This document shows, one piece after another, positions 13,658-31,385 of a stretch of DNA of 64,000 nt. Both the position numbers and the translations under genes were made by a program. A model generated the notes under the pieces. That model saw only the letters and a program-made list of their open reading frames with translations. It did not search any database and was not told where the DNA came from. The stretch's first letter is position 1; each line of letters begins with the position of its first letter. Source of the stretch: a virus; IMG/VR virus record IMGVR_UViG_3300020477_000001, positions 94,302 to 158,301 of that record; one strand, written 5' to 3'.

Positions 13658-13819
13658 AGTCGCTAACAGACTGCTACGGTGGGTTGCACCGGAAGGGGAG
13701 GGAAACCTCCAAATGCCGAATAGGTATGGTTCGCTTGCGAAGCAGATTCGGAAAGTTCCTAGGGGTCAACGGGGGGAGGATCATCCCGATCCTCCTCCCG
13801 CCCCCAAACCCTACAACAC
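13658..13819 (+). ncRNA. putative tracrRNA/omegaRNA-like scaffold upstream of the TnpB-like gene
   Basis: Hairpins CGGTG-GGTTG-CACCG, GGAGG-GAAA-CCTCC and CCGAAT..TTCG-CTTG-CGAA..ATTCGG, then AGTTCCT (13754-13760, complementary to the repeat core), a long GC stem and terminal CTACAACAC. Confidence 0.65.
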
Positions 13820-15407: not shown

Positions 15408-15538
15408 AAAATAAATAAAAATGAAAAGCGACAATCCAAACCGAGGCAACGGCAAGCACATTCATAAGTCACCAATCAATATGGACAATCCACAAAAAAA
15501 AGAGGATAGTGACTGGTGGGCAGAATTGTGTAAAAAAC

Positions 15539-16441: not shown

Positions 16442-16876
16442 ATGAGGAAAAACAAGATTTCATTAGTAAGCGGCGGATTTGATCCAATTCACGTTGGACA
16501 CATAGAACTCTTTAACAGGGCTAGAGAAATCTCTGACGGGCTATTCGTGATCTTGAATAGTGATAGGTTCCTCACAGAAAAGAAGGGCAAGCCCTTCATG
16601 CAGCAACCAGAAAGAAAAGTCATTATTGAAAACTTACAGATGGTTGACTTGGTTATACCTTCAATAGACGAAGACCAAACGGTTTGTGCTACCCTGCGAA
16701 AACTAGCTAGCCTCAAGGACGCAGTTGACTCTGAATTATATTTCTGCAATGGTGGAGACAGGACGGACGGCGAGAACACGCCAGAACACAAAGTCTGCGA
16801 AGAAGTCGGAATACACAACGTTTATGGATTAGGTGAAAAAATCCAAAGCAGTAGTTGGCTTACGAAAGGGAACTGA
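16442..16876 (+). CDS. cytidylyltransferase-family protein
   Basis: SGGFDPIHVGH (HxGH), NGGDR, KIQSSS. Confidence 0.85.
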   Translation: MRKNKISLVSGGFDPIHVGHIELFNRAREISDGLFVILNSDRFLTEKKGKPFMQQPERKVIIENLQMVDLVIPSIDEDQTVCATLRKLASLKDAVDSELYFCNGGDRTDGENTPEHKVCEEVGIHNVYGLGEKIQSSSWLTKGN

Positions 16877-16898
16877 AACACATAAAATCACCGTCGCG

Positions 16899-17450
16899 AT
16901 GAAGAATTTAACCTGCGATAGCAAGAAGGGGAGAGAGTATGAAGCTCACGAAGAGAAAGCTATACTCTATATACAAGAGAAAAGAAATGTTGTAATAACC
17001 TCTACGAGGTCAGAGCTCAATGAGGAATCAAAAATCCTAGAACAAGATATCTTAATCTCCAAAAAAGATGAAAGAGGAATCTTCAGACTAAGGGCGGTAG
17101 GCGAATTTAAGAACAGGAATGAATTCAAAAGAGGCTCTGGAATCCCGTTGACGCTAGAGAAGCTAAAAGGAGATAGACCTAATGACGGCTACATGATTAG
17201 CCTCAGAAAGCTAAAGAGTGGCCAAGCAATGTCTACGTCCCTAAAGGTTCCTTTCGTTGTTATTGTTAATTTAATGAATGATAAATACATTCTCTGCTGG
17301 AAGCTGACCAACGAGAAAGGTCAATGGGTTAAAAGACCGGAATCACTCAAACAAGAGACGCAGAAGAACATTGCAGGGGGAAATAAGCTTGACGACGTAG
17401 TTTATCTTAAATTATCAGAAACAGCTTTTCAACTTGAAAAAAACTACTAA
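16899..17450 (+). CDS. putative PD-(D/E)xK nuclease
   Basis: G.EYE, QD, GEFKNR pattern; weak match. Confidence 0.35.
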   Translation: MKNLTCDSKKGREYEAHEEKAILYIQEKRNVVITSTRSELNEESKILEQDILISKKDERGIFRLRAVGEFKNRNEFKRGSGIPLTLEKLKGDRPNDGYMISLRKLKSGQAMSTSLKVPFVVIVNLMNDKYILCWKLTNEKGQWVKRPESLKQETQKNIAGGNKLDDVVYLKLSETAFQLEKNY

Positions 17451-17479
17451 TAGGTTAAACTGAGAAAACTTAAAAAATT

Positions 17480-17842
17480 ATGAGCGAAGATAACAATAAC
17501 TCTAATACCGAAGAAACTACAAAAAACTCCAAAGACTTTTCGAGGCAAGAGGAAAACTGGAAAATTATGATTTTCTGTAATATTTCTTGGGAAGAGGCTT
17601 CGAAGGTAGAAGGCGACGACAGGGAGTTCCTTTTGCTGAAGGCTGACGAGCAGAAAGTAGAAGTACTCAAAAGGAAAAAAGAGTTGGCCGAGCAACAGAT
17701 GGCAGAGCAGCAGCAACAGGCCATGATGCAACAGCAAGCCTTGATGCAACAGCAGCAAATGATGCCCCAGCAGATGCCAATGCAGCAGCAAATGCCTATG
17801 AACGGCGGCGGTATGCCTCCCCAGATGCCCCAGAGAGTCTAG
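17480..17842 (+). CDS. protein with Q/M/P-rich low-complexity C-terminal tail
   Basis: AEQQMAEQQQQAMMQQQALMQQQQMMPQQMPMQQQMPM. Confidence 0.6.
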   Translation: MSEDNNNSNTEETTKNSKDFSRQEENWKIMIFCNISWEEASKVEGDDREFLLLKADEQKVEVLKRKKELAEQQMAEQQQQAMMQQQALMQQQQMMPQQMPMQQQMPMNGGGMPPQMPQRV

Positions 17843-17849
17843 AGGGAGC

Positions 17850-18167
17850 ATGGATGGCCATTTAAAGCTTCTAAATCCGAAAAGGATAAGAGTTAAGTCG
17901 CTGTGCTGCTCTTATTGTGATCTTTCTTATAACAGAGAACACTATAAGGCTTTATTCGAGGCTAAAAAATTAATTTATTTTAAATCTCTAGATACAAACA
18001 TATTTAGAGAGAAGGAAATAATTTGCCATGACTGTTTAGTTAATCTAGCAGACAAAGAGTCACTTTCATTCAAAGTAGAAACAGATACACATATTCTTAA
18101 ATTAGATATAGACCCAACGATAGGCAATAAAGGCGACACAGATGACTTTTTAGATGATTTAATATAG
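17850..18167 (+). CDS. hypothetical Zn-finger-like protein
   Basis: CSYC and CHDC pairs. Confidence 0.5.
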   Translation: MDGHLKLLNPKRIRVKSLCCSYCDLSYNREHYKALFEAKKLIYFKSLDTNIFREKEIICHDCLVNLADKESLSFKVETDTHILKLDIDPTIGNKGDTDDFLDDLI

Positions 18168-18205
18168 ACTTGACTTAACTTAAAAAACTCTATATCTTCC
18201 TATGC

Positions 18206-19129
18206 ATGTACAATTTGTGCTGCATATCAAATTCATTAGCCAAAGAGGGTCACAAGTTTCAGACCATGACTTGGGCTAGGTTCTCCAAGTTACCCCGCGA
18301 AGAAGCTATTGCAATCGTTTCTGCTCGCACTCTTAACAATCTGAAAGTTACGCGCAAGATTCTTGAGCAGTGTGCAGAGCATGGCTGGGGCTATCGCGTT
18401 AGCTCTGCTTTATTTCCACTTCTTACTTACGATGTAGCAGAACTCAAAATTCAAGACTACCCAGACTGGATTGACATACAAGCTGCATTTGCAGACTGCA
18501 ATATGTTCATCAATGACAATCGTATCCGCATCTCATGTCATCCAGATCAGTTCAATGTTCTTGCAAGCTTGGGTAAAGCGCAGGTAGAAAAGACTATCAA
18601 AGAACTCAATCATCATGGTTGGTTCATGGATATGCTTGGTGCTCCTCGCGACTATCGCGCACCCATCAACATTCATGTCAACAACACCAAAGGCGAGCCT
18701 TCAGAAATTGCTGACCGTTTTATGCTCAACCTTTACAAGTGCGACCAATCTGTACGCTCACGACTAGTCATAGAGAACGAAGACAAAGGCATCTGGACTC
18801 CAGCGTTACTTGTCGAGCATTTCACCACATTGCCCATTACTTACGACAACCTACACCACAAATGCTTACCCGATGGCCTCACAGAGGATGAAGCCTATCG
18901 CTTGTGCTATAACACATGGCAAGATAACGGTTACTTCAAACCACTGTTTCATTACTCAGAGTCTCACCCAGACAAAAACAATCCACGTAGCCATGCCGAC
19001 ACACCCACCGAGATACCGCTGGACGGCGGACATTCTTTCCCTGTTGACTACGACATAGAACTCAAGTCAAAAGATGACGCCATTAAAGAGATACAAAGAT
19101 TAGAACTGAAGGGGTTAATAAATGGATAA
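18206..19129 (+). CDS. uvsE: UV DNA damage endonuclease
   Basis: YRVSSALFP, ISCHPDQFNVL, ENEDK, DNLHH, HYSES, SHAD, ELKSKD. Confidence 0.9.
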   Translation: MYNLCCISNSLAKEGHKFQTMTWARFSKLPREEAIAIVSARTLNNLKVTRKILEQCAEHGWGYRVSSALFPLLTYDVAELKIQDYPDWIDIQAAFADCNMFINDNRIRISCHPDQFNVLASLGKAQVEKTIKELNHHGWFMDMLGAPRDYRAPINIHVNNTKGEPSEIADRFMLNLYKCDQSVRSRLVIENEDKGIWTPALLVEHFTTLPITYDNLHHKCLPDGLTEDEAYRLCYNTWQDNGYFKPLFHYSESHPDKNNPRSHADTPTEIPLDGGHSFPVDYDIELKSKDDAIKEIQRLELKGLING

Positions 19130-20039
19130 AAAAGAGAAAACAAAATCGACAGATAGAAATATAGTTTGCATAGATTGCGGGGAGGAGTTTACAGGATGCT
19201 ATAGAACCAAGAGATGCAAACCCTGCGCGAAAGAGAGGGCGAACGCTTTAGCTAGAAAGAGGAGGGCAGCTAACCCAGAGAAATATCGCACTTACGATAG
19301 AGCTAGATATGCCGCCTCCCCGAAGAGACGTGAGCAATCGCTTGCAAGTCAGCATCGCAATATAGAGAGAACTAGAGCAACCAGAAGAAAGAGTTACAAT
19401 AATAATAGAGATAAAATTTTAGCCAAAGCAAAATCGGATCGCGAGGCTAACCCAGAGAAATATCGTGAACGGAAGAGGGTTGCTTACCGCGCTAACCCAG
19501 AGAAACACCGAAAAGAGGCAAGAGACCGAAGGGCGGCTAATCCAGAAAAGTACCGCGCCCAAGCTAAGGCTAGGTATCATGCCAACCCGCAAAAATTCCG
19601 CGATCAAAGGAAAAAGTCTTTTGAAAACAACCGAGAGGAAGTAAACAGACGAGCTAAGGAGAAAAGGGCAGCTAACCTAGAGAAATATCGCGCTAGAGAC
19701 AAAGAGGCTGAAAAAAGACGACCTGCTGGGCAAGCACTGGCGAAATCCAATGCGAGAAAAGCACTTAAACAGTCTGCAATCTTACCTACAACAGATTTTG
19801 ATAAAATAAAAAATCTTTACAAAGAAAGGACTAGACTAACAAAAAAAACAGGCATAGAGCATCACGTTGATCATATAATCCAATTAACCCTAGGAGGCGC
19901 ACACCATCAAGACAATTTGCGCGTGATAACAGCAAAAGAAAACCTCACAAGGGGTTACGACTACGACCCCACTCTTGGTGGTGTATGGGCAAACAATGAC
20001 CGAGCAAGGAAAACTAAGAAAAAATTAGGAATCAAATAA
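19122..20039 (+). CDS. HNH endonuclease with N-terminal Zn ribbon and ANPEKYR helical repeats
   Basis: CIDC..CKPC; several ANPEK repeats; HVDHIIQL..GGAH..DNLRVITAKEN. Confidence 0.85.
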   Translation: MDKKEKTKSTDRNIVCIDCGEEFTGCYRTKRCKPCAKERANALARKRRAANPEKYRTYDRARYAASPKRREQSLASQHRNIERTRATRRKSYNNNRDKILAKAKSDREANPEKYRERKRVAYRANPEKHRKEARDRRAANPEKYRAQAKARYHANPQKFRDQRKKSFENNREEVNRRAKEKRAANLEKYRARDKEAEKRRPAGQALAKSNARKALKQSAILPTTDFDKIKNLYKERTRLTKKTGIEHHVDHIIQLTLGGAHHQDNLRVITAKENLTRGYDYDPTLGGVWANNDRARKTKKKLGIK

Positions 20040-20207
20040 TGATAACGCCCCCGAAGATCATAGGTTTTATATGGGTAGCATTCTTAACACTGTTTTACTT
20101 CTTCGCCTCAATAGCTGTTTTTATTGTTACTTCAATCGCTAATATTTTTAAAAAAGAATAAATAAAAAACCTTGACTAAAGTTAAAAAACTCTCTATTAT
20201 ATTACCC

Positions 20208-21089
20208 ATGAAGAGAATTGATACTTATTTCGCAAAAGAGTACGAGGCAGACACACCCACTGCCTCTATGCGTAAGTTGCGCCCAGTGGCTGAAGCAGCT
20301 AGTGCTGCTGGTTACGCAAACATCTTGAAGACATCCTCCAGCGAAGGCGTTAGCGACAAGCTAAAAAAAATTCACAATGCAGATTACGTGGAAGCCTTCT
20401 CTAACGGTACTTATCCGCTCAGCGAAAGCAATGGATGGGGCTGGAGCAAAGAGATTAGGGACGGCGTTTTCAGAATTAACACAGGGCAGCTTGACGCTGC
20501 TAAAGCTGCGTTAAGCAACGGCATTGCAGCAAATGTAGCGCAGGGGTTTCACCATGCTGGAATCGAAAGAGGCTGCGGTTATTGTACCTTCAATGGGTTA
20601 GCACTAGTCGCTAATGAATACAAGACCAAGAAAGTATTCGTTTTAGACTGCGATGAGCATGGAGGCAATGGTACGGCTGAGTTTACCAACATACTGGACA
20701 ACTTATCGCAGGTAACCATCAACGGCTCTAATTTCGGAACCGAAGAGAACCCCCGCAGCCGATGCATTACTCTTCCTCGAATCACTAACCGATTTGAGCT
20801 TTACGAAGATGCACTGGAAGAAGGCTTCTCTATAATGGATAGGTTCGAGCCCGACTTGGTTATCTACCAAGCTGGTGCTGATCCTCACATTGACGATCCC
20901 TTGGGCTCTCTGGGTATGACAACCGAACAAATGTACAACAGAGACAAGAAAGTATTTACGAAGCTCAAAGCTTCAAATATACCGACAATGTTCGTACTGG
21001 CGGGGGGCTATCAAACCCCGATTGAGGAAAAACTTGTACCGCTGCACTTGAACACCTTCAAGGCTGCTCACGAAGTATACAACAATTAA
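20208..21089 (+). CDS. histone deacetylase/acetylpolyamine amidohydrolase-family protein
   Basis: GFHHAG, GYCTFN, LDCDEHGGNGT, QAGADPH.DDPLG, GGY; start moved to the leaderless ATG. Confidence 0.9.
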   Translation: MKRIDTYFAKEYEADTPTASMRKLRPVAEAASAAGYANILKTSSSEGVSDKLKKIHNADYVEAFSNGTYPLSESNGWGWSKEIRDGVFRINTGQLDAAKAALSNGIAANVAQGFHHAGIERGCGYCTFNGLALVANEYKTKKVFVLDCDEHGGNGTAEFTNILDNLSQVTINGSNFGTEENPRSRCITLPRITNRFELYEDALEEGFSIMDRFEPDLVIYQAGADPHIDDPLGSLGMTTEQMYNRDKKVFTKLKASNIPTMFVLAGGYQTPIEEKLVPLHLNTFKAAHEVYNN

Positions 21090-21134
21090 AGGAACAACAA
21101 CACAGCACCAAAGATACTATCTCCGTAGCATACT

Positions 21135-21545
21135 ATGAACATCAAAAGAGAAACAACAACAGCATGGGTAGTTTTCCCAGAATATACCCAATGGGAAAAC
21201 AAGGACAATAAAATGTTCTGGGATGAAGATTACGACCTAGAAGCTGCCGCAGATGCTGCCGTAAAACATTCATGGAAAAAGCCCATAATGACTAGAAAAT
21301 GGCCTCGGCCTGTCACTTTCGGTGACTTTGTGCTTGTTACCAATAGCAATTCAAGCGAGTGGTTTAAGATGATTCGCTGTAAAGGCGGATGTAATGGCTA
21401 TGAGTGGCAAGTCTCATCTTGGGAAGAGGTTTTTGGCGAAGAGGCGGCAGTTAGGAAAGACATGAAAGGATACCTTGAAGACGCTGCTAAAGTAAATGAC
21501 GCCCTAACTGAATTTGAGGAGAAACAATGCACAACGGAAAAGTAG
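21135..21545 (+). CDS. hypothetical protein
   Basis: ORF track. Confidence 0.5.
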   Translation: MNIKRETTTAWVVFPEYTQWENKDNKMFWDEDYDLEAAADAAVKHSWKKPIMTRKWPRPVTFGDFVLVTNSNSSEWFKMIRCKGGCNGYEWQVSSWEEVFGEEAAVRKDMKGYLEDAAKVNDALTEFEEKQCTTEK

Positions 21546-21961
21546 GATTTACTTGTAGCTGCTTTGACCTTTTACACGCTGGCCACTGCTTGATGCTGAA
21601 GGACTGCAAAGAGCAGTGCGACTGGCTTGTCGTTGGCCTCCAAACCGACCCCAGCGTCGATAGACCAGAGAAAAACAAACCAGTCCAGTCACTTGAAGAA
21701 AGAAAGATACAATTAGAAAGCATAAAGTACGTTGATCAAGTGCAAATATACGAAACAGAATCAGACCTAGTAAAACTGATTGAGGATGTCCATCCAGACG
21801 TAAGGATACTCGGTAGCGATTATATAAATAAAAAATTCACTGGCGATCACCTAGACATTCCCGTATACTACCACGAAAGAAACCACGATTGGTCCACTAG
21901 CGATTTAAGAAAAAGAATCAAAGGGGAATGGCCTCACCATACAGACTATCTGGATGACTAA
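21527..21961 (+). CDS. glycerol-3-phosphate cytidylyltransferase-like protein
   Basis: FDLLHAGH, LVVGLQTDPS.DRPEKNKP, STSDLR. Confidence 0.85.
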   Translation: MHNGKVGFTCSCFDLLHAGHCLMLKDCKEQCDWLVVGLQTDPSVDRPEKNKPVQSLEERKIQLESIKYVDQVQIYETESDLVKLIEDVHPDVRILGSDYINKKFTGDHLDIPVYYHERNHDWSTSDLRKRIKGEWPHHTDYLDD

Positions 21962-22189
21962 CCAGCGTACTGCAACACAATAAAAAAACGCGATTAATAA
22001 AATAATGAAAGCCTTTCCTTTAGTTCTTTTAATTTTATTTATTTTTATTTCTGGCCCTTTAGTTACCATTTGGATGCTTAATACTCTATTTTCTGTAGAT
22101 ATTCCATACACTTTGGAAACTTGGGCTGCTGCTTTTGTATTAGGAGCCGCGCTTTACGGTCCTAACGCAAGGAAAGAACTACGCGATAA

Positions 22190-22468
22190 ATGAAGAGAGT
22201 AGATATACAAAATCATATAAATGAACACTACCCAGAAATGGATGAAGATATTCTTTTAGCTGATGGATTCGAGAAAGCTTTTTTGGGGATTGCTAATAGT
22301 TATTGCTCCGCGCCCAGAGCTTGCTATGATGCTGATAAATGTATAGAAATCCTAGAAAAGAGAGACGGAATGAGTCATGAGGAAGCTATTGAATTTTTTA
22401 ATTTTAATGTTTCTTCTGCTTATGTCGGGGAGTTTACGCCAGCATTTATGAAATTGGCGCATAGTTGA
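22190..22468 (+). CDS. conserved phage hypothetical protein
   Basis: ADGFEKAFLG...EEAIEFFNFNV..AYVGE.TP. Confidence 0.55.
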   Translation: MKRVDIQNHINEHYPEMDEDILLADGFEKAFLGIANSYCSAPRACYDADKCIEILEKRDGMSHEEAIEFFNFNVSSAYVGEFTPAFMKLAHS

Positions 22469-22738
22469 TATTTCTTGACACTGTTTTTGTTTATGTTATT
22501 TTTTCGGCCATGAGAATGGCCGACTTCGTGAAAGGGCATAATAAGCTGAAAATTAGCAGTTTTCAGTACCTTTGTGCGTTTCAAGCTGGCCACTTAGATA
22601 AAGACAAGGATGATTCTTATTGTCCTTATACATTTCCGCCGCAAATAGAAGCATATTTTCAAGGTAAAAAAAATAAAAACAAAAAAATTATTAACAAATT
22701 CTTGACTTAATTAAAAATGAATGGAATAGTGGGACTCC

Positions 22739-23692
22739 ATGAGTAGCTACCTAGAAGAAAAGTCGTCGGAAGATTTATATTTTAATGAAATTTCAAGATA
22801 CGATTTAATCTCCTCGGATCGAGAAAAAGAGTTAGCAAAAAAAATAAAAAAAGGCGGAAGAACTGGCAAAAAAGCCCTTGAAGAATTAGTTAATGCTAAT
22901 TTAAGATTAGTCGTAAAGATAGCTGGAGAGTTCAAAGGCTTTGGGTTGGATTCTGGCGATTTAATCAACGAGGGAAACCTCGGATTGATGAGGGCCGCTG
23001 AAAAGTATGATGGCCGCGAAGGCGTTAAGTTTTCAACATATTCCGCGTATTGGATAAGGCAAAGTATCTACAGAGCCCTCTCGAATAAGAGCAGAACAAT
23101 TAGGCTTCCCGTTCATGTTTGCGCTGCTAATTCTAAAATAATTAAATTTATTTCAAAATACCAAGAATCCAACAATGGAAAAAAGCCTTCAGTTAAGCAG
23201 ATAGCGAAAGCCACCAACGCAACAGAAAGATTGGTGTCGGATGTAATAAATGGTGGAGTGACCAACGTAAACTCTCTAGACAGAGAAATCGGAACTGATG
23301 ACAGCGGCTCTAAAGAGACCCTAGGGAACATAATTGAGGACCAAAACGCTGAATCCCCCGACCAAATCTGGAAAAACGTGGAAGATGTTAGTATTCTATT
23401 AAAATTGATACAAAAATTAAATAATAGAGAAAGATACATAATTTGCAATAGATATGGAATAGGAACCAAGACCCCAAAAACTCTAGAAGAAATTGGGGAA
23501 CACTTCGGCGTTACTAGGGAAAGAATAAGGCAGGTACAAAAAGTAGCAATGATGAAGTTAAAAAACTACATGGATAAGTATTATAGATACAAGCCAGAGG
23601 TTGAGGATCATTATGTTGAAGGCCGAAGATTTGTAGCAAGGGTTAAAAGAGAAGAAAAAGCCAGAGAAAAGAAAAAAAAGGTTAAAAAATAG
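22739..23692 (+). CDS. RpoD/RpoS-like sigma-70 factor
   Basis: ANLRLVVKIA, DLINEGNLGLMRAAEKYD, FSTYSAYWIRQ, TLEEIG..FGVTRERIRQ. Confidence 0.92.
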   Translation: MSSYLEEKSSEDLYFNEISRYDLISSDREKELAKKIKKGGRTGKKALEELVNANLRLVVKIAGEFKGFGLDSGDLINEGNLGLMRAAEKYDGREGVKFSTYSAYWIRQSIYRALSNKSRTIRLPVHVCAANSKIIKFISKYQESNNGKKPSVKQIAKATNATERLVSDVINGGVTNVNSLDREIGTDDSGSKETLGNIIEDQNAESPDQIWKNVEDVSILLKLIQKLNNRERYIICNRYGIGTKTPKTLEEIGEHFGVTRERIRQVQKVAMMKLKNYMDKYYRYKPEVEDHYVEGRRFVARVKREEKAREKKKKVKK

Positions 23693-23944
23693 TGTAATTT
23701 TTTTAAGAACTGCTACACTGGTTCAATAATAGAATAACAATCAAACTAAATATGTAAACACAACAACAATAAAGGGGGCGCATGAAAGATTCAGAATTAT
23801 TATTAAGGGAGGTTTCTTTTGAGTTATTAGGCAAGTTGAACGATACTTACGAAAGTGATTCCGAATATGCGGCGGGGCAAAGGTTTGCATACCTTAAATC
23901 AATTTTAATCATTAAAAAGAAACTATCTGAAACTAGGAATAATA

Positions 23945-24514
23945 ATGCCAAGACACCCAATTGATGATGAGGTTTACACGTTCGACGATATAGGCAAAAA
24001 TGCGCCAAGGTTGAGCTACAATCGTAAAATTAAAAAGATCGTCTTCGAGAACTACGAAGCTTTCTGGCTTTTGCTTCACGCCACAAAACACCCAGATATT
24101 ATTAATGGAGTTATCTTTGAAACAGATGACAACTTCAAGGCTCATTATATAAAACAAACAGGGGATAAAGACTTAAATAATCTTTATATAAATAAATTTA
24201 TTTTAAAAGAGATGATGGAGGCTATGAACATAAGCGACCAGCATGATACCTTCCAAGGGTCATTCCAAGATAAGAATATGCACCTCTGGATGACCAACCA
24301 AAATGAATCCGAGAACATGGAGGATGCCAAGGTTCTCAGCAGTAAGTCTCAGTCAGAGCGGCAGAAGAGATTTGATCAAAAGACCAAGGAGAGAGAGCAA
24401 CAAGGAGAAGAAAGAATGAACGCACAAGAATTCCTTGAGTGGTCATCGGAGCATGTAGAAGAAGACTTAAAAAAGAGAATAGATGCAGGAGACACAAATT
24501 GGAAATTCTTATAA
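23945..24514 (+). CDS. hypothetical protein
   Basis: ORF track. Confidence 0.5.
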   Translation: MPRHPIDDEVYTFDDIGKNAPRLSYNRKIKKIVFENYEAFWLLLHATKHPDIINGVIFETDDNFKAHYIKQTGDKDLNNLYINKFILKEMMEAMNISDQHDTFQGSFQDKNMHLWMTNQNESENMEDAKVLSSKSQSERQKRFDQKTKEREQQGEERMNAQEFLEWSSEHVEEDLKKRIDAGDTNWKFL

Positions 24515-25381
24515 TGCAAAAGCCAGACAACAAAATGAAGCGCTGGCTAAACTCTCAGACCAAAGATTTAAAAAAAATTAATTTTAATTCTCTGGTAAAT
24601 TCATTCAAAGACAAGTTTAAGGTCAGTATCAACGATGCTCGTATGTACGTGATGCAATGGGACCACGACAGAAACAAGCATTAAACCGCCGTATTAGATG
24701 CTTGACATATATTAAAAAACTCCTTATCATATATCTACAGACATACCTTAAGATATATATAGGAACAAACAATGGACTTAATATTTGCGGCAATAGTGAT
24801 ATACTTCTTCTGCTTTGCTTTTAAGCAGCTAGTCAAGGATTTGTAAATCGAGGGGGAGCTACAACACAACAAATTGTGAAAACAATAGCCCTGTTTTTAC
24901 GAGCTTTTTACACATTTTTTAAAACACTCACAGTGAACTACAACACTATAAGCTAGTATGGAACTAATAAACACAATAAAGCATTTCAAAAGAATAAAAT
25001 AAAATATTGAAGTGTATTAAAATGGGTTAATGTGGGGTGCATATTATATATATATCCGTCAAGCATTAAATTTAAAAACTATTCACATATTTATTAACAC
25101 TGAAACCACGTCAAGCAAAAACAACAAAAAACAATAAAAAACTTATTAATATTTTCTAAGTCAAGAAAAAACAAACAAAAACTTAAAAAATTATTATTGA
25201 CTATATAGCAAATATATGGGCTTAAAACCAAGAAAAGAAGGAGAAGCAAAAAGAATAGCAACATACATAATATTAATCATATATGGAATTGTTATACTTA
25301 TAGTTTATCTATTAAATAAATTATTTTCTTGACACAGATAAATGGAATTAAAACACAATAAAGAATAGAGGGTTTTTTTTG

Positions 25382-25482
25382 TTGACTTAACTTAAATAAA
25401 TTAGTATAATGTTTCCAAAGGGGCTTCATCACAACAAAGGTAAGATTTTTCTTGACTTAAGTTAAATAATATATTAAAATTT
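25382..25482 (+). promoter_or_regulatory. tandem duplicated sigma70 promoters upstream of the repeat region
   Basis: TTGACT-17-TATAAT at 25382-25410 and a near-copy at about 25453, both followed by TTTCCAAAGGG; no ORF downstream. Confidence 0.6.
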
Positions 25483-25577
25483 TCCAAAGGGATTTTTTTT
25501 ATTTTTTTTAATTCTTATAATAGGAATTATTTTTTTCTTGACAAGTAAATAATGTTTCTTATTCTTATTATGCTTAA

Positions 25578-25795
25578 GGAGCTACACCACGTTATTAACA
25601 CCAACGTACACGGAACTACACCACCCATTTGCCGACGATTGATTTTTAAGGAACTAAAGCACGGATTCGAACTCACGTCTGGAACTACGACACCCATTTA
25701 CCAAGGAGCCGCAACACGTCGAATGCAGTGGTATATTTGTGAACGCAATCGAGCCAAATAATAGGAACTAAATACACGAGGTCGGGAGTTCAGAA
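25578..25795 (+). repeat. mini-array of 13-nt cores GGARCT-NNNN-CAC
   Basis: Cores at 25578, 25612, 25650, 25681, 25705 and 25764, separated by unique sequence. Confidence 0.7.
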
Positions 25796-25800
25796 AAGCC

Positions 25801-25829
25801 TTGACTCATCTTAAAAAACTCTTCATAAT
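25801..25829 (+). promoter_or_regulatory. promoter of the CRISPR array
   Basis: TTGACT-catcttaaaaaactctt(17)-CATAAT; same class as the tnpB-unit promoter. Confidence 0.7.
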
Positions 25830-25925
25830 AGTCCCCAGATTAAGAAACTGATCTTTGACATAGGCACTGCAACACACGAGGCCAAAGACATTCAAGGGAC
25901 TACAACACAACATTATGGTATTCCT

Positions 25926-26476
25926 TAGCAATTTAAGGGACTGCAACACAGTAAGGCGATTATAACATCGCGCTCGACGGTTCGCACTGGTACTAATTTA
26001 AGGGACTGCAACACTGCAACCATGCTAACTAACGTGGTTACACAGCTTCGCACTGGTAGCAATTTAAGGGACTGCAACACTGTTACACACATCGCTGCGA
26101 TGAAGCGGCGGCTTCGCACTGGTACAGATTTTAGGGACTGCAACACCGTATCAGAACGAGATATCGTCCCGCCTTGGGCTTCGCACTGGTAGCAATTTAA
26201 GGGACTGCAACACTTAGTCGAACCGCATAACGTCGAGTGTCTGCTTCGCACTGATAGCAATTTAAGGGACTGCAACACAATGAGGCAGATAATGGAAGGG
26301 GTAGCTAGCTTCGCACTGATAGCAATTTAAGGGACTGCAACACAAAACTGCACCAACAGGAAGCGGAATCACAGTTTTGCACTGGTACTAATTTAAGGGA
26401 CTGCAACACAAGGGGTGACGTAGTGGAAGCGACCACATAAGCTTCGCACTGGTACAGATTTTAGGGACAACAACAC
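25926..26476 (+). CRISPR. CRISPR array: 8 full repeats plus 1 partial, 36 bp (GCTTCGCACTGGTAGCAATTTAAGGGACTGCAACAC), 8 spacers of 29-31 bp, no adjacent cas genes
   Basis: Repeats start at 25926 (partial), 25979, 26045, 26111, 26178, 26243, 26308, 26374, 26441; spacers are unique, lengths 29,30,30,31,29,29,30,31. Confidence 0.92.
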
Positions 26477-26495
26477 AGTAAAGAACCCTACGTAC

Positions 26496-27358
26496 ATATT
26501 TGTGAATGATTTTTGGACAAATAAAGGAACAACAACACTGAATCTCTAGGCGATATTTGTGAATGATTTTAAGGCAAATAAAGGGAACTACAACACTCTG
26601 TTAAAGTCCGTCCAACACGAGGCGGCGAGAATTGATGCCGATCAAAATACTTAATTATTGATTGACTAATTTTTTTGTCGCTCATTTGTGAACGTCAAAG
26701 AGGCAAATAATATAGGGGAATTAAATTAGATATTTTAGATTAATAGGGACTAATTAAACACGATGCTCAATCCCAATATTGTTAATTTATGAATGATTTT
26801 TTGCCAAATAAGGGTTATTTAACATAAGGGAATTTCGTATACAAGAAAAATGTTGCCCCGGAGAAAACACCCCCTTATAAGAAATATATTAAAGGAACTA
26901 AAACACAACAAAAGTGATGAAGAATTTAATTTTAATTATTATTATTTTAATTATTACTGGTTGTTATACAGCCAAGGAAAGAGTAATGCCTCTTGGTCCC
27001 CATGATGATAGCTATGGTAAGAATTGGGTAAGTAATTAAGGAACTGTAACACCAAATCCAGCATGGCGTTTAGATATTTTGGGAACTAAAACACGGGTAT
27101 AGCTCATTTGAAATAGGAACTAGAACACATGTGGTGCGCCATTATATTTGTGAACGCGATTTTTGCAAATAAAGGAACTACAACACCAGCGGTTTCAGAA
27201 GCTATCTGTGAACGCGATTTTTGCAAATAAAGGAACTACAACACCCGTCATGGAATTATAACACTAACTCCTCAGATGGAACTACAACACGTTGAGATAC
27301 TGCTTTCGCGGGAGCTATCTGTGAACACAATTTTTGCAAATATAGGGAACTACAACAC
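26496..27358 (+). repeat. second repeat family (~43 bp) ATATTTGTGAAYG..TTTT.GCAAATAAAGGAACTACAACAC
   Basis: Copies at 26496-26538, 26553-26596, 27144-27186, 27203-27244, 27316-27358 (also 25733-25777; decayed copies near 26684 and 26785). Confidence 0.75.
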
Positions 27359-27510
27359 GACGGGAACTCACGACGGAGAGTTAATCAAGGAACAACAACA
27401 CGAAAACTTTTTCTGTATTCTTGATCTTGTAATGGAACTACAACACTCAAGGGCGGCTCATTTTAATTTAAAATAAAAAAGGGAACTACGACACTTGCTA
27501 TTATTAATTG
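27040..27510 (+). repeat. mini-array of 13-nt cores
   Basis: Cores at 27040, 27082, 27116, 27174, 27232, 27252, 27278, 27346, 27389, 27434, 27482. Confidence 0.75.
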
Positions 27511-27589
27511 TATCTTTAATTAGTGTAATTATTATTGTCTATAAGTTTTTATTGACTGTAATTAAATTGCTCTATATAAAAGGATACAC

Positions 27590-27826
27590 ATGAAAAAAAA
27601 GAAACTATCCCCGCAAGCCCAAATATACGAGAAGGCTTGGAACGACGTAGTGTCCGAAATGAGTGACCATAAAAGAAATATTATTATTAATAATTTTACT
27701 GTTGTCAGTGGTCATCATGTATATGAGAATAAATATGATCAAAGGGTAGCAGATGAAGCAGCTAAGGAAGCCCGTATACGAGGTGACCAACAAATAGAAG
27801 CACTGTTTCCAACTGGCAAGTATTAA
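27590..27826 (+). CDS. hypothetical protein
   Basis: ORF track; upstream TTGACT promoter. Confidence 0.5.
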   Translation: MKKKKLSPQAQIYEKAWNDVVSEMSDHKRNIIINNFTVVSGHHVYENKYDQRVADEAAKEARIRGDQQIEALFPTGKY

Positions 27827-27827
27827 A

Positions 27828-27925
27828 GGTACTACAACACGAGCGGGCACTACAGTGGTAGGAACAACAACACAGTCCCCTGCTATAATCTATGGAACTA
27901 AAGCACGAGTGCATATAGTAGAAAA
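27828..27925 (+). repeat. three-unit mini-array, 33-bp period (13-nt core plus 20-nt spacer)
   Basis: Cores at 27828, 27861 and 27894, directly after a stop codon. Confidence 0.75.
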
Positions 27926-27977
27926 AAATAAAAAAAAATAATTGACTTAAATTAAAAAAAACTTCATACTGGTCGCC

Positions 27978-28220
27978 ATGAAGAGAAAAGGTTCTGGCAA
28001 AACAAAGGGAGCGACCAGCTTCGTACAAGTGACACTGGGAGAGCTCAACCGCGTACTCAAAGAGGGTGCAGTGGTTGTGGTCAGTCGCAAGTACGCCGAG
28101 CAACTGGAGCTCGATTCTAAGCCCATGTATTCTAATTACAAGAATCTTGAGGCCCACTCAAACCAAATCGATGTCAAGATCGATGAACCGGAGGACACAA
28201 TTGATTTCAAAGTAGAATAA
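27978..28220 (+). CDS. hypothetical protein
   Basis: ORF track; leaderless promoter architecture. Confidence 0.6.
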   Translation: MKRKGSGKTKGATSFVQVTLGELNRVLKEGAVVVVSRKYAEQLELDSKPMYSNYKNLEAHSNQIDVKIDEPEDTIDFKVE

Positions 28221-28293
28221 TGGAATAACAACACGAACGAAAAGACTTCATAAAAGTCTTGACCTAACTTAAAAAACTATATAATATATCCCT

Positions 28294-29253
28294 ATGACGA
28301 ACGAACGAACTATCCCCAACCCTTTCGAGGGTATCATTGGCCAAAAGAAGGCTAAGAAACAGATAAACTTTTACAGGCGAGGCTACAATGCCACAGGTAT
28401 TCTTCCTCACCTATTGTTTGTTGCTCCGAAAGGATGCGGCAAGACCATGCTGGCTAAGGCTGTTAAAGACACTCTTATGTCCAGAGAGAACCCAGAGAAA
28501 GCTAAGAAGTTTCTGGAGATTAACTGCTCTACGCTTCGCAACGTCAAGCAGTTCTTTAATCAAATCATGATTCCTCATGTTCAACACGAGGAAGTCACAA
28601 TCTTATTCGATGAATCCTCTGAGATTCCTCACGATGTTTCGATGGCACTGCTTACGTGCTTAAACCCGAACAAGCATAATCGTAACGAGTTCTCTTACGA
28701 GGACTATACGGTAGAGATTGACTTCTCGCGACACACTTTCATGTTCGCCACCACCGAGGTGCAGACCATGTTCCACGCTCTTATTGACCGATGCAAGCGC
28801 ATCGATCTACAGGAGTACTCTTTAAAGCAACTCGGACAGATTCTCAAGGTTAACCTTGAGGGTATCGAGTTCGAGGAGGGTCTGATGCCCGACATCGCCT
28901 CTACTCTTAGGGGCAATGCTCGTAAAGCAGTTCAGACTGCCAACGACATTTCCTCGTACATGGCGGCGGAGGAGCGAGGTTACTTCACTCGCAAGGACTG
29001 GAACCTGTTCAAAGATGAGCTAGGAATCGAGCCACTCGGATTGTCTCCGATTGAGATTCAACTCTTAGAGATTCTCAACGACAAACCAGAGTGCAGCTTG
29101 ACCTACCTGTCAGCCAAGACTGGCATGACCAAGGCGGCAGTACAGAGGGACATTGAGATGTACCTTCTCAAGAACGATCTAATGGAGATCGGCACTGGCG
29201 GACGCAAGATCACCAACAATGGACGTGAGACCTTGGAGGTCATCAATGGATAA
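28294..29253 (+). CDS. ruvB: Holliday junction branch migration ATPase, RuvB-like
   Basis: IIGQ, HLLFVAPKGCGKT, LFDE, FATTE, LIDR, RGNARKA, C-terminal winged helix E.YL..GRKIT. Confidence 0.8.
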   Translation: MTNERTIPNPFEGIIGQKKAKKQINFYRRGYNATGILPHLLFVAPKGCGKTMLAKAVKDTLMSRENPEKAKKFLEINCSTLRNVKQFFNQIMIPHVQHEEVTILFDESSEIPHDVSMALLTCLNPNKHNRNEFSYEDYTVEIDFSRHTFMFATTEVQTMFHALIDRCKRIDLQEYSLKQLGQILKVNLEGIEFEEGLMPDIASTLRGNARKAVQTANDISSYMAAEERGYFTRKDWNLFKDELGIEPLGLSPIEIQLLEILNDKPECSLTYLSAKTGMTKAAVQRDIEMYLLKNDLMEIGTGGRKITNNGRETLEVING

Positions 29254-30332
29254 AGTTACTGCGGAACAGCTTAAGAGAGAGCCATCGGCTCCCTTCGATA
29301 GAATCGTTCGTCATATGGAGGATTTCCTCGCTGCGCGGATGTGCAGCGAGGAGTCCTTCAACCAAGTGAAGCGTAACACCTACAAGTACACAGACTGCGG
29401 CGCTTGGATTGACGAGGACGAGAACGGTATTACTGTAGGAAGTATTGTCGAAGGAGCAGACTACGGAACCTCGACTTACGTTTTAATCTACCCATTCAAG
29501 ATTCAAGAATTCTGGGATGCATTGAATGAAGTAGAGATGGAGGCTAAACAAATCTGGGAGGAGGTCAATGGAGAAGAACAATGACATAGACTTCGCAATA
29601 TTAAACCAAAAAAGATATGAAAAATATAAAGGAATTAATTTAAGTACTTGTTTCTTAGTACATGAATCAGAAAAGGGACACATGAAGGACTGGACTTGTA
29701 TCACGCGGAATGATGACTTCTTTAGAGTAAACATTATCGCAGGTATGGTCTCAATGATGAGAGGAGAAACAGAGTACGACATTACGGGACCAGCAACAAA
29801 TATACTAAACCCCGTACTAGGATTACAGAACAAAGAAGATTTGGAAAAATGTAAATTCTCTGATATAAAGAAGTTTATGAAATGGAGAATCAATAAAGAT
29901 AACTATATAGAATAAGATTATGAATAAGAAAGATACAAATACATATGTTGTTAAGATGACCGAAACCAGCAACGGAGTGGTCGTAGACTCAGTGCAGCAA
30001 CTCGTACAAGTGCTCGGTGTAGATCGTGAGAAGTATAAGACTATCGACAAGCGCGACTTCACCAGCAAGCATCTCAATACTGTTACTAAATTCACAGCGC
30101 GTTAATGAAGAAGTCTCACTGGAAAGAAGGTCTTGAAATACCCAAGCCACCAAAGGGAATCACTCACGCCCAAATAAAGTGTGGCAAGAAGAAGTCTACC
30201 GTAACTATAAACGACTTCGACACTTTCCGAGGGGTAGAGGGAATGGTGCGCTGGGGTAAGCAAAAGAAGAACAGTAAAACAATTGAATTAATAGGAGAAG
30301 AATTCTTTTGGGACGGATTTAAAGTAGAATAG
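29246..30332 (+). CDS. run of four small hypothetical genes (29246-29584, 29568-29915, 29920-30105, 30105-30332)
   Basis: ORF track; overlapping starts and stops. Confidence 0.5.
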
Positions 30333-30400
30333 GAACTACAACACAACATAATATTCGCGACTCGCAAGGGAACTACAACACGTTCAAGGACTTGGTATAA
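30332..30400 (+). repeat. two 13-nt cores GGAACTACAACAC at a stop codon
   Basis: 30332-30344 and 30369-30381, 24-nt spacer. Confidence 0.7.
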
Positions 30401-30906
30401 AAATTTCCTCCCAAACCGTGGGCTATCCCAACCCCACACCGGAGTCGATGGAATAGAGGCGGAAGAGAGCTCCGCACTAGCGATGGGGATATCGCTACGT
30501 TTAACACCATCGGCTCCTTGACTTCTTTCAAATAACCTCGTATACTAATACCAGCAAACCAAATAATACAATTTTATCTTTCCTGTATTATTGAAAGTTC
30601 AAACTTCTTAATGTCTCTATGCAATTTAGGGACAACTTCTGCCCTTCATCGGCAAACAAAAATGAATCAAATAACACCAAATAAAAGCGAACCATATACG
30701 AACAAATAATAGACAAATAAAATAGATATAAGAATATAAGAATATAAAATTTGGCGGGTGACCCTATAATAATAGAACAACAATTGTTAATAACTTTTTA
30801 ATAATGTTAATAATTTTTTCTTGACTTAAACATACAGAAAAACGGAATAACAATTATTTTTTTCTTGACAAGCAAAATCGTGTAGAAAATTTTTTATATT
30901 TTTTTG

Positions 30907-30968
30907 TTGACTCGAAAACCTCGGCGCGAGACAATTGCATTGTCGCCCGCCACGTTTTGGCCTGTCAA
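30907..30968. repeat. TTGAC...GTCAA palindromic element, copy 1
   Basis: CGGCGCGAGACAAT-n-ATTGTCGCCCGCC core. Confidence 0.85.
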
Positions 30969-31385
30969 GCATTTAATTAAATTATTTTACCAAGCCACAG
31001 TACCTTTCGTATTACTATTAATACAAGTAATATTATTATAAGATTATTATAGTTCATTTATTCTAGTGATAAGATTGTCGATTCCGTCTTGCTTCTTTTG
31101 GTAGCTCTCTTTATCTCTGCCTATGTGGGGACTTAAGTCACTAAGGAAAGACACACGCCACCGCTGCCATTCTAATAAAGAAACCTTTAATAATTCTAGT
31201 TCTTGTTTTGATATTTCTATTTTCATTATTGTTATAAGATTCGAAGGGTTTACCCGCCCCCATTACGGGGGCGGGGTGGGCGCAGATACTATCGCGTGAG
31301 CTTTTCCATCTCACAAAACAATACTATCAACACATACGCCCCGATGATGTATCCGAATATTTCGCCACGCATCACCTCCTTCCAA

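What the first reader, a model, noticed from the sequence alone, without database searches (positions are those of the whole stretch)
16869..30381. Repeat-guide units parked at stop codons of unrelated genes
Cores sit on or within a few nt of stop codons: 16869-16881 (overlaps the TGA of the cytidylyltransferase), 21091 (HDAC, stop 21089), 21966 (degenerate; stop 21961), 27828 (stop 27826), 28222 (stop 28220) and 30332 (overlaps TAG). A weaker copy lies at 23706 after the sigma-70 gene. Inference: guides are harvested from mRNA 3' UTRs, tying each guide's timing to its carrier gene. Alternatively, effector/scaffold binding processes or regulates these polycistronic mRNAs.
Basis: partly seen in the sequence, partly recalled or inferred. 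Interest (0 to 1): 0.75.

Follow-up and report, generated by a model that had tools for sequence, protein, structure and literature searches.

The report
Guide-RNA units flush against stop codons
In this compact 158-kb marine phage, short guide-RNA units for a probably non-cutting TnpB/Cas12f-like protein start exactly where unrelated genes stop, so they are most likely made from those genes' messenger RNAs; the exact fit probably reflects very tight genome packing, not a special link to stop codons.

Summary
The 13-nt core (consensus GGAACTACAACAC) is the 3' end of the 36-nt CRISPR repeat at 25914-26499. The complete genome has 40 strong copies. Twelve clusters can be told apart, and in six the first core lies within one base of a stop codon (21091, 27040, 27828, 28222, 30332, plus a minus-strand copy between nrdA and nrdB, 10.5 kb before the window). 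At 16869 the stop lies inside the core. Random noncoding placement gives P about 3e-8.

Strain variants keep these cores in place while the guides behind them are replaced or lost. A distant relative (effector 39% identical) shows three more cases at other genes. Eighty related phages lack the nrdA-nrdB unit. The weak copy at 23706 is not supported.

The units are co-oriented with their carrier genes and leave no room for a promoter, so co-transcription is likely. No RNA data could be obtained.

One control weakens any special meaning of the stop codon. The phage's own promoters and start codons also abut stop codons (median gap 6.5 nt). Tight packing of passenger guide modules is the best explanation.

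This scan noted scattered guide repeats in gaps between genes before, in another phage (e1-5795606).

The parts
13658..13819 (+). Structured scaffold (tracr/omega-like) RNA upstream of the effector. It ends in CCCTACAACAC and contains AGTTCC, which is complementary to the GGAACT of the cores.
   Evidence: fold z = -3.1. Conserved with compensatory changes in L144, L146 and L147. AGTTCC and GTGGGTTGCAC are also kept in L159. Duplex energy alone is no better than shuffled cores.
13829..15337 (+). 502-aa TnpB/Cas12f-like effector. RuvC-III reads ERN instead of DRD.
   Evidence: Pfam PF12323, PF01385, PF07282. Alignment to solved TnpB-like structures. E475-R476-N477 is invariant in 9 lineage members.
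16869..16898 (+). Core GGAACTGAAACAC containing the TGA of the CTP_transf_like gene (16442-16876), then 17 nt up to the ATG at 16899.
   Evidence: Strain L147 keeps the core with TGA changed to TAA. The 17 nt differ at 7 positions, which matches the neutral rate.
21091..21134 (+). Core GGAACAACAACAC one base after the HDAC TAA, then a 31-nt guide region up to the ATG at 21135.
   Evidence: L155 has the core at the same place but a different guide, only 11 nt before the ATG.
21966..21978 (+). Degenerate core CGTACTGCAACAC, 4 nt after the stop of the second CTP_transf_like gene. Possibly a decayed unit.
   Evidence: PWM 13.1, near chance level. Unchanged in L155, but so are its flanks.
23706..23718 (+). 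Weak look-alike after the sigma-70 gene. Rejected as a unit.
   Evidence: PWM 10.8, chance level. Decays in L155.
25914..26499 (+). Canonical CRISPR array: nine 36-nt repeats whose last 13 nt are the core, with spacers of 29-31 nt.
   Evidence: Spacer content differs among strains L154, L155 and L157.
26894..27052 (+). Core 26894, 10 nt, then the 41-aa lipoprotein-like ORF (26914-27039), then core 27040 directly after its TAA. A gene sits in the spacer position between two cores.
   Evidence: A similar lipobox ORF ending in TAG that shares its G with a core is present in L159.
27828..27926 (+). Three units (cores at 27828, 27861, 27894) starting one base after the TAA of orf78 (27590-27826). 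The last 8 codons of orf78 overlap a homologue of the full 36-nt repeat.
   Evidence: family D6; flank score p = 0.0025; orf78 under purifying selection.
28222..28257 (+). Core GGAATAACAACAC one base after the TAA of orf80 (27978-28220), then a 23-nt segment with a small hairpin, then the -35 of the next promoter.
   Evidence: Invariant in all 10 strain loci.
30332..30405 (+). Core sharing its first G with the TAG of orf75 (30105-30332), a 24-nt guide, then a second core at 30369 with its guide.
   Evidence: Three different guide states occur among strains, including loss of one unit by core-to-core recombination.

Best explanation
The stop-adjacent cores are real guide modules. Each is a 13-nt handle followed by roughly 11-30 nt of guide. 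They belong to the phage's own RNA-guided system, which has three other parts:
- a 502-aa TnpB/Cas12f-like protein with an Asp-to-Asn change in RuvC-III, so it probably binds DNA without cutting it;
- a scaffold RNA that ends in the same CTACAACAC;
- one CRISPR array.

The modules have no promoter of their own. They ride as passengers on the mRNAs of unrelated genes and are presumably released by processing at the handle.

They begin at the stop codon for two ordinary reasons. First, a module has to lie outside the reading frame but inside the transcript. Second, everything in this genome is packed end to end, so promoters and start codons abut stop codons in the same way.

Shown: the positions, the enrichment, conservation of the core with turnover of the guide, recurrence in a distant lineage, lineage-specific insertion at nrdA-nrdB, and the packing control.

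Inferred: co-transcription, processing, loading into the effector, and any effect on timing.
For: - Same handle as the array: 39 plus-strand and 1 minus-strand copies, against fewer than 0.6 expected by chance.
- Enrichment at stops: 6 of 12 clusters at spacer -1 to +1, P = 3e-8.
- Co-orientation: the only minus-strand core lies in the minus-strand nrdA-nrdB junction.
- No promoter can fit between stop and core, and no plus-strand terminator is predicted directly after a stop-adjacent unit.
- Array-like dynamics at the stop-adjacent sites. In 10 strain loci the core keeps its place. The guide is replaced at the HDAC and orf75 junctions, and units are lost by core-to-core recombination at the orf41 and orf75 junctions.
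- Independent recurrence in L159, whose effector is 39% identical and which has the same core and array repeat. There the effector's own TAG shares its G with the first core, an unrelated 80-aa gene has its TAA inside a core, and a lipoprotein-like ORF has a TAG sharing its G with a core.
- L144 (effector 68% identical) has a core 4 nt after the proline dehydrogenase stop, then 16 nt to the next ATG.
- The nrdA-nrdB unit is an insertion. Of 80 related phages (NrdB 84-92% identical), 52 show an nrdA-nrdB junction (the nrdA C-terminal motif was not found upstream of nrdB in the other 28). It is 45 nt or shorter in 43 and holds 172-241 extra nt in 9. No junction or upstream stretch holds a core.
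- Packing control: the median co-oriented gap is 6.5 nt. The -35 of the conserved phage promoter lies -8 to +8 nt from a stop in 6 of 14 cases.
- Some guides are conserved between the window phage and L159, which argues that bare-core guides are under selection.
- Precedents: PMC10278001 (TnpB processes its own mRNA), bioRxiv 10.64898/2026.04.20.719267 (one repeat is enough for a crRNA), PMC8224270 (crRNAs made from cellular mRNAs).
Against:
- No target was found for any guide, whether in the phage itself, in cultured phages, in IMG/VR or in species genomes.
- The guide at 16869 evolves at the neutral rate: 7 of 17 positions against 28.7% at third codon positions, Fisher p = 0.28.
- The guide at 28222 never varies and overlaps a hairpin and a promoter, so it may not be a guide.
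- Tests for purifying selection on the guides are confounded by mosaic recombination.
- The 6-bp handle-to-scaffold pairing is no more stable than shuffled cores.
- The cores sit closer to stops (0-1 nt) than the promoters do (2-8 nt). Packing may therefore not be the whole story.
Confidence: 0.55

Rival explanations
1. Specific coupling to translation termination or mRNA punctuation. The effector-scaffold complex binds or cuts the mRNA at the handle, exactly at the end of the upstream reading frame. This would define the 3' end of the upstream cistron and control the downstream one (for example nrdB or the 136-aa gene), perhaps by creating a leaderless downstream mRNA.
For: - The spacing is tighter than for promoters: 0-1 nt, or an overlap that shares the G of TAG in three independent cases.
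- In-operon units fill the whole junction, with the guide running up to the next ATG: 17, 31 or 11, 24, 16 and 18 nt.
- Promoter-proximal genes of this phage look leaderless, with the ATG 6-8 nt after the -10.
- Adjacency persists where plenty of noncoding DNA follows (orf75, orf78, orf41).
Against: - There are no RNA data.
- Lack of a Shine-Dalgarno motif is common genome-wide (only 35-44% of genes have one), so its absence after units says nothing.
- L159 and L144 also have units 4 and 9 nt from stops, and units unrelated to any stop.
- The packing control explains most of the pattern.
Confidence: 0.2
2. Recombination scars. The 13-nt cores act mainly as short homology for shuffling gene cassettes into and out of a degenerate array, so genes end at cores because cassette borders are cores. 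On this view the stop-adjacent copies need not yield working guides.
For: - Core-to-core deletions and replacements are seen between strains.
- From 24.8 to 30.4 kb, genes sit in spacer positions between cores.
- Divergence between strains is mosaic.
- There is no Cas1 to add spacers.
Against: - The nrdA-nrdB unit lies 27 kb from the array, in a conserved core operon, and brings no cassette with it.
- Cores keep the handle consensus in lineages as far apart as 39% effector identity.
- Some guides are conserved across lineages.
Confidence: 0.15
3. Built-in stop codon. The longer repeat forms carry TAA just before the core (AATTTAA|GGGAC, CAAATAAA|GGAAC). Any frame that runs into a repeat then ends there, and the link to stops would be a by-product or an ORF-calling artefact.
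For: - Position -2 is A in 80% of flanks and T is common at -4 and -5.
- The last 8 codons of orf78 overlap a homologue of the full 36-nt repeat (p = 0.0025).
- The site at 27040 is marginal (p = 0.09).
Against: - The flank score is not above that of random gene ends for 16869, 21091, 28222, 30332 or the nrdA site.
- TGA and TAG are used at three of the seven sites (16869, 30332, nrdA).
- The carriers are real genes with normal ends, by Pfam and by third-position divergence.
Confidence: 0.05
4. Chance resemblance of short A/C-rich words near gene ends.
For: - Core-like 13-mers do arise by chance inside nrdA of related phages, from a conserved R-N-S-N-T coding motif.
- The copies at 23706 and 21966 are near chance level.
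Against: - Strand bias of 39 to 1.
- Fewer than 0.6 hits are expected at the threshold used.
- P = 3e-8 for the positions.
- Conservation across strains and lineages.
Confidence: 0.01

Closest known systems
TranC (transposon-CRISPR intermediate) and other TnpB-derived type V systems with a split tracrRNA/crRNA (Jin et al., Cell 2025, known here through PMC13565253; LaTranC PDB 9jfo/9jfq)
   Same: A TnpB-like effector without a transposase. A scaffold RNA ends in the same sequence as the repeat handle. A CRISPR array is present. The PDB search hits LaTranC over the TNB domain only.
   Different: The effector has Asn at the RuvC-III catalytic position. The scaffold lies upstream of the gene. Most guides sit outside the array as bare 13-nt-handle units, several of them embedded in operons of unrelated genes. 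Membership in a TranC clade was not tested by phylogeny.
TldR, TnpB-like nuclease-dead repressors (PMC10705468; review PMC13565253)
   Same: A domesticated, phage-borne TnpB relative with a damaged RuvC site that is expected to bind DNA under RNA guidance.
   Different: TldRs use one guide RNA encoded next to the gene. Here there are about 40 guide units, an array and a separate scaffold. No promoter targets were found.
dCas12f-sigmaE RNA-guided transcription (PMC13472631)
   Same: A nuclease-dead miniature type V effector, short guides, and a sigma factor gene in the same region (22739-23692).
   Different: The sigma factor here is a full four-region sigma-70 type, not an ECF factor. No genetic fusion or strict adjacency is seen and no targets upstream of genes were found. 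This is a lead only.
TnpB omega-RNA cut out of the tnpB mRNA (PMC10278001)
   Same: A guide RNA is produced from the 3' part of a protein-coding transcript. In L159 the effector's own stop codon overlaps the first core.
   Different: In the window phage the carriers are unrelated genes (HDAC, cytidylyltransferase, nrdA and small ORFs), and only a 13-nt handle rather than the whole scaffold is embedded.
Noncanonical crRNAs derived from cellular mRNAs (Cas9, PMC8224270), and single-repeat crRNA production by phage LalCas12r (bioRxiv 10.64898/2026.04.20.719267)
   Same: An mRNA segment that pairs with a tracr-type RNA, or a single repeat followed by sequence, is enough to make a guide.
   Different: The Cas9 cases are fortuitous and the LalCas12r case was engineered on a plasmid. 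Here the units are conserved, numerous and placed at gene borders.
Integron attC sites and T4-type promoter/stem-loop cassettes (from my own knowledge, not checked here)
   Same: A short repeated element directly follows the stop codons of unrelated cassette genes in a hyperplastic region.
   Different: No integrase was looked for. The core has none of the imperfect inverted repeats of attC, and it is shared with a CRISPR array and an effector scaffold.

Membership tests
CRISPR-type guide units (repeat handle plus spacer) of a type V / TranC-like system | The same repeat handle as an array linked to an effector gene in the same genome | tested here: met
   The last 13 nt of the 36-nt array repeat equal the scattered core. 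The effector lies at 13829-15337.
CRISPR-type guide units (repeat handle plus spacer) of a type V / TranC-like system | Spacers vary between strains while repeats stay in place | tested here: met
   The HDAC and orf75 junctions carry different guides in L155/L158 and in L154/L157. Units are gained or lost at cores.
CRISPR-type guide units (repeat handle plus spacer) of a type V / TranC-like system | Anti-repeat in a tracr/scaffold RNA pairs with the handle | tested here: inconclusive
   AGTTCC in the scaffold complements GGAACT and is conserved in L144 and L159. Duplex energy equals that of shuffled cores.
CRISPR-type guide units (repeat handle plus spacer) of a type V / TranC-like system | Mature guide RNAs are produced and loaded | not testable with these tools
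CRISPR-type guide units (repeat handle plus spacer) of a type V / TranC-like system | Adaptation genes (cas1/cas2) | tested here: not met
   No Cas1 (PF01867) in the complete 158-kb genome. Cas2 was not searched.
TldR (nuclease-dead TnpB repressors) | Loss of RuvC catalytic residues | tested here: met
   RuvC-III reads E-R-N instead of D-R-D, and N477 is invariant in 9 relatives. RuvC-I Asp and RuvC-II Glu are kept.
TldR (nuclease-dead TnpB repressors) | A single adjacent guide RNA whose guide matches a promoter target next to a TAM | tested here: not met
   There are about 40 guides. No matches were found in the phage genome, and no host targets were found.
IS200/IS605 TnpB transposon | TnpA (Y1 transposase) or IS ends, with the omega-RNA overlapping the 3' end of tnpB | tested here: not met
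   No Y1 transposase in the genome. The scaffold lies upstream of the gene.
3'-UTR-derived or intercistronic regulatory RNAs | A stable RNA species with defined ends, cut from an mRNA | not testable with these tools
   No RNA data. The architecture only permits it (0-1 nt spacer, co-orientation).
Integron gene cassettes (attC) | An attC imperfect inverted repeat and an integron integrase | not tested
   The core is 13 nt with no inverted repeat visible by eye. The integrase was not searched.

The most novel reading that the evidence does not exclude
The phage runs a distributed guide programme. Guide modules are built into the mRNAs of accessory genes and even core genes (nrdA-nrdB). Each transcription unit would then deliver its own guides to a DNA-binding, non-cutting TnpB-like effector at its own time in infection. 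Excision of the guide at the handle would also cut the polycistronic mRNA exactly at the stop codon. This would set the fate of the downstream cistron, for example by leaving a leaderless nrdB message.
Probability: 0.15. Interest if true: 0.8.

Novelty: new variant of a known kind. Interest (0 to 1): 0.55.

Why it matters
Known RNA-guided systems keep their guides in dedicated arrays or next to the effector gene. Here a phage scatters minimal guide units (a 13-nt handle) into the junctions of unrelated operons, including the ribonucleotide reductase operon. Distant relatives do the same. If these units are loaded into the effector, messenger RNAs serve both as protein templates and as guide precursors, and guide supply would follow the expression of the carrier gene. 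That would be a natural example of multiplexed guide delivery from mRNAs with a very short handle. It would also give a way to study how a probably nuclease-dead TnpB derivative is used by a lytic marine phage. If only tight packing is at work, the finding still shows how small a working guide module may be and where to look for such units in other phage genomes.

Tried and rejected
1. Built-in TAA of the long repeat as the cause. A 23-nt flank profile from the array repeats is significant only at 27828 and marginal at 27040. It is not significant at the other five sites.
2. Paralogy of the carriers as a source of pseudo-replication. The two cytidylyltransferases are only 32% identical over their N-terminal half. 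orf80 and orf75 are unrelated. orf80 of the window and the 80-aa gene of L159 are unrelated.
3. Self-targeting. Neither whole guides nor 10-12-nt seeds match the phage genome more often than shuffled seeds do.
4. Protospacers.
   - The array zone searched against 50,697 phage records gave only noise.
   - Exact scans of IMG/VR with the nrd-junction guide and with an array spacer gave 0 hits.
   - The tRNA-like guide searched against 185,579 species genomes gave 2 unrelated MAG hits.
5. Faster evolution of the 16869 guide. The 7 of 17 differences to L147 looked high against 5% overall divergence, but third codon positions differ by 28.7%. The rate is therefore neutral.
6. Purifying selection on the guides after orf78 and orf80. 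There are 0 of 63 differences to L155, against 12.7% at third positions. However, the local block, including orf80, is itself nearly identical because of mosaic recombination. Inconclusive.
7. Handle-scaffold duplex energy is no better than for shuffled cores.
8. Lack of a Shine-Dalgarno motif downstream of units is uninformative, since only 35-44% of genes have such a motif.
9. Searches for relatives that led nowhere.
   - The effector alone against IMG/VR found nothing.
   - A two-core DNA pattern in IMG/VR returned mainly collagen-like coding repeats.
   - The effector-alignment scan of metagenomes returned generic TnpBs without cores.
   - The 36-kb contig of the 71%-identical effector has no DNA on hand.
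10. Sequencing runs.
11. Core-like words inside nrdA of related phages come from a conserved R-N-S-N-T coding motif. They are not units.

Full report
**What the window is.** The window is the last 64 kb of a complete 158,301-bp virus genome with direct terminal repeats and 39.6% G+C. The genome carries a 4792-aa tail protein and other large virion genes. At 13829-15337 it encodes a 502-aa TnpB/Cas12f-like protein (PF12323, PF01385, PF07282). RuvC-I Asp and RuvC-II Glu are present, but the RuvC-III motif reads E-R-N where TnpB has D-R-D. This E475-R476-N477 is invariant in the nine known members of the lineage. Upstream, behind a phage promoter, lies a G+C-rich structured RNA at 13658-13819. 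It ends in CCCTACAACAC and is followed directly by the effector's start region. This RNA is conserved, with compensatory changes, in relatives whose effector is 95% and 68% identical. The genome has no Cas1 and no Y1 transposase.

**The repeat.** A CRISPR array at 25914-26499 has 36-nt repeats ending in GGGACTGCAACAC. The same 13-nt core (consensus GGAACTACAACAC) recurs in two other forms. One is the end of a roughly 42-nt hairpin repeat. The other is a bare 13-mer followed by 11-30 nt of unique sequence. A position weight matrix of the 13 nt finds 39 copies on the plus strand and one on the minus strand at a score of 16 or more. A first-order Markov model of the genome gives fewer than 0.6 hits even at a score of 14. 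All but one copy lie between 16869 and 30381 of the window.

**Checking the observation.** 'Spacer' is the number of bases between the last base of the stop codon and the first G of the core.

| Core | Spacer | Upstream gene and stop |
|---|---|---|
| 16869 | -8 | Cytidylyltransferase-like gene; TGA lies inside the core |
| 21091 | 1 | Histone-deacetylase-family gene |
| 27828 | 1 | orf78 |
| 28222 | 1 | orf80 |
| 30332 | -1 | orf75; TAG shares its G with the core |
| 27040 (new) | 0 | 41-aa lipoprotein-like ORF |
| Minus strand, genome 83796-83808 (new) | 0 | nrdA TGA, then core, then 24 nt, then the nrdB ATG |

The minus-strand copy is the single strong minus-strand core in the genome.

- The degenerate copy at 21966 (spacer 4) scores near chance level.
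- The weak copy at 23706 scores at chance level and decays further in a strain variant. I do not count it.

The carriers are real genes. Four have Pfam assignments. orf78 differs from its homologue in strain L154 at 24 positions, all third codon positions, with 22 synonymous and 2 non-synonymous codon changes. orf75 shows 9 synonymous and 6 non-synonymous codon changes.

**Is this more than chance?** Six of the 40 strong cores lie at spacer -1 to +1 from the stop of an ORF of at least 40 aa. Only 0.7% of genome positions have this property, so 0.28 are expected. Array copies are not independent, so I grouped the cores into 12 clusters and took the first core of each. Six of 12 are at spacer -1 to +1, and a seventh overlaps the stop. 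A random placement in noncoding DNA meets the criterion with probability 0.018, which gives P = 3e-8. Placing each core uniformly within its own intergenic gap gives a product of 2.5e-10.

**Evidence from strain variants.** The exact orf80 protein occurs on many metagenome contigs. Ten loci of up to 20 kb were retrieved, from Tara Oceans and other metagenome assemblies. In all of them the stop-adjacent cores keep their position. What follows the core changes:
- At the HDAC junction, L155 has a different guide with only 11 nt before the next ATG.
- At the orf75 junction there are three states: two units, one unit after core-to-core recombination, and a different guide.
- At the orf41 junction one unit is lost in L154 and L157.
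- The unit after orf80 never varies. It contains a small hairpin and runs into the next promoter.

Strain L147 keeps the core on the cytidylyltransferase stop, with TGA changed to TAA.

**Evidence from distant lineages.** L159 has an effector only 39% identical. It has the same core, a nearly identical 36-nt array repeat, hairpin repeats and solitary cores. Three cores there meet stop codons of other genes:
- the effector's own TAG shares its G with the first core;
- an 80-aa gene unrelated to orf80 of the window has its TAA inside a core;
- a lipobox ORF ends in a TAG that shares its G with a core.

A further unit there lies 9 nt after a stop, and others are not next to stops at all. L144 (effector 68% identical) has one core 4 nt after the proline dehydrogenase stop and 16 nt before the next ATG. 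Several guides are conserved between the window phage and L159.

**The nrdA-nrdB unit is an insertion.** Eighty IMG/VR phages with NrdB 84-92% identical were retrieved. In 52 of them nrdA lies directly upstream of nrdB; in the other 28 the nrdA C-terminal motif was not found there. The junction is 45 nt or shorter in 43 and holds 172-241 extra nt in 9. No junction or upstream stretch contains a core. In the window phage the 37-nt unit fills the junction completely.

**Why at stop codons?**
1. I first suspected that the stop belongs to the repeat, since the long repeat forms read TAA just before the core. A 23-nt flank profile built from the array repeats is significant only for 27828, where the last eight codons of orf78 overlap a homologue of the full repeat. 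It is marginal for 27040 and not significant for the other five sites. This explains at most two cases.
2. I then asked whether other elements behave in the same way. They do.
   - The median gap between co-oriented genes is 6.5 nt, and a quarter of gene pairs overlap.
   - The phage's conserved promoter (TTGAC, five bases, TTAAAAAA) has 18 copies. Of the 14 with an upstream ORF of at least 60 aa, six have the -35 hexamer between -8 and +8 nt from the stop. Two more are separated from the stop only by guide units.
3. Flush packing against stop codons is therefore a property of the whole genome. A guide module must lie outside the reading frame yet inside the transcript, so in such a genome it ends up at the stop codon. 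The cores are somewhat tighter (0-1 nt) than the promoters. This leaves room for a specific coupling, but nothing here demands one.

**How the units are probably expressed.** There is no space for a promoter between stop and core. The units are co-oriented with their carriers on both strands. No plus-strand terminator is predicted directly after a stop-adjacent unit; the scan's only plus-strand hits past the effector promoter lie inside ORFs or inside the mini-array zone. The units must therefore be transcribed as part of the carrier mRNAs. Published precedents make harvesting plausible:
- TnpB cuts its own mRNA into omega-RNA (PMC10278001).
- A single repeat followed by 18 nt gives a working crRNA in the phage LalCas12r system (bioRxiv 10.64898/2026.04.20.719267, section 25).
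- Cas9 can take crRNAs from cellular mRNAs (PMC8224270).

The handle probably docks on the scaffold through GGAACT:AGTTCC. The AGTTCC is conserved in L144 and L159, but the pairing energy is not above that of shuffled cores. With Asn in RuvC-III the complex would bind DNA rather than cut it, as TldR repressors do (PMC10705468) or the dCas12f-sigmaE activators (PMC13472631). A sigma-70 gene lies among the units, but I found nothing that links it to the system.

**What remains open.**
- No target was found for any guide.
- The 17 nt after the 16869 core evolve at the neutral rate.
- Selection tests on the other guides are confounded by mosaic recombination.
- RNA data could not be obtained.

The claim that these units are loaded guides therefore rests on architecture and comparative dynamics only.

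**Comparison with known systems and novelty.** The system as a whole resembles TranC-type split-guide TnpB derivatives and TldR. The specific feature examined here, minimal guide units embedded at gene junctions of unrelated operons, has partial precedents: omega-RNA from tnpB mRNA, single-repeat crRNAs, and mRNA-derived crRNAs. I found no description of a natural, conserved, multi-gene arrangement of this kind. This scan has noted scattered guide repeats in gaps between genes of another phage (e1-5795606). I class the finding as a new variant of a known kind.

**Verdict.** The stop-codon fit is best explained by passenger modules in a genome with no spare bases (confidence 0.55). A specific coupling to termination or mRNA processing is the main rival (0.2).

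Noticed in passing
window 30889-43000 (copies near 30889, 32174, 32861, 34444, 35666, 37904, 39162, 42886): A repeated element of roughly 100 nt. It has a TTGACT promoter-like start, then GAAAACGCGGCGCGAGACAATC...GATTGTCGCCCGCCGAGC with a strong inverted repeat, then ...TCGTCAAGC. Copies lie 0.7-2.2 kb apart on the plus strand, in a region where the genes are on the minus strand (families D3, D4, D10, D11). Rfam has no match.
   Followed up: no
window 18170-18208, 20172-20210, 27942-27980, 28259-28296: The conserved phage promoter places the ATG of the first gene 6-8 nt after the -10 hexamer. Promoter-proximal genes therefore look leaderless. Only 35-44% of genes have any Shine-Dalgarno-like motif.
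   Followed up: partly
window 15338-15420: Directly after the effector's stop codon lies a long hairpin (GTGGCTGGCGGCGG ... CCGCCAGCCAC). It appears to be kept by paired changes in strain L147. It could be a terminator or another RNA.
   Followed up: no
window 25663-25680, and the matching unit in L155 at 5897: One mini-array guide (GGATTCGAACTCACGTCT) looks like the complement of a tRNA T-arm. The L155 counterpart keeps GGATTCGAAC but differs afterwards. An exact search of species genomes gave only two unrelated MAG hits.
   Followed up: partly
window 26526 and 25612/25681; L155 6502 and 5846; L159 8628, 5024 and 5063: Some guides are conserved between phages whose effectors are only 39% identical (TGAATCTCYARGCGATA, and a family starting CCAYTTRCC). 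This points to conserved but unknown targets.
   Followed up: partly
L165-L237, inside nrdA; in the window's genome at window -9921, minus strand: The conserved NrdA peptide R-N-S-N-T is encoded as AGGAACAGCAACAC. This mimics the core inside a reading frame in many related phages and is a source of false positives for motif scans.
   Followed up: yes
window 63578-63998: A long run of 9-nt-period tandem repeats inside an open reading frame that runs off the end of the window (families D1 and D2).
   Followed up: no
window 30400-30520: A G+C-rich stretch of about 120 nt without an ORF follows the last guide unit and precedes a promoter-like site at 30518. It may be structured RNA.
   Followed up: no
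L144 8740-8863 and L159 4885-4975: Both related phages carry a tRNA gene close to their guide units. In L159 two units follow the tRNA gene directly.
   Followed up: no
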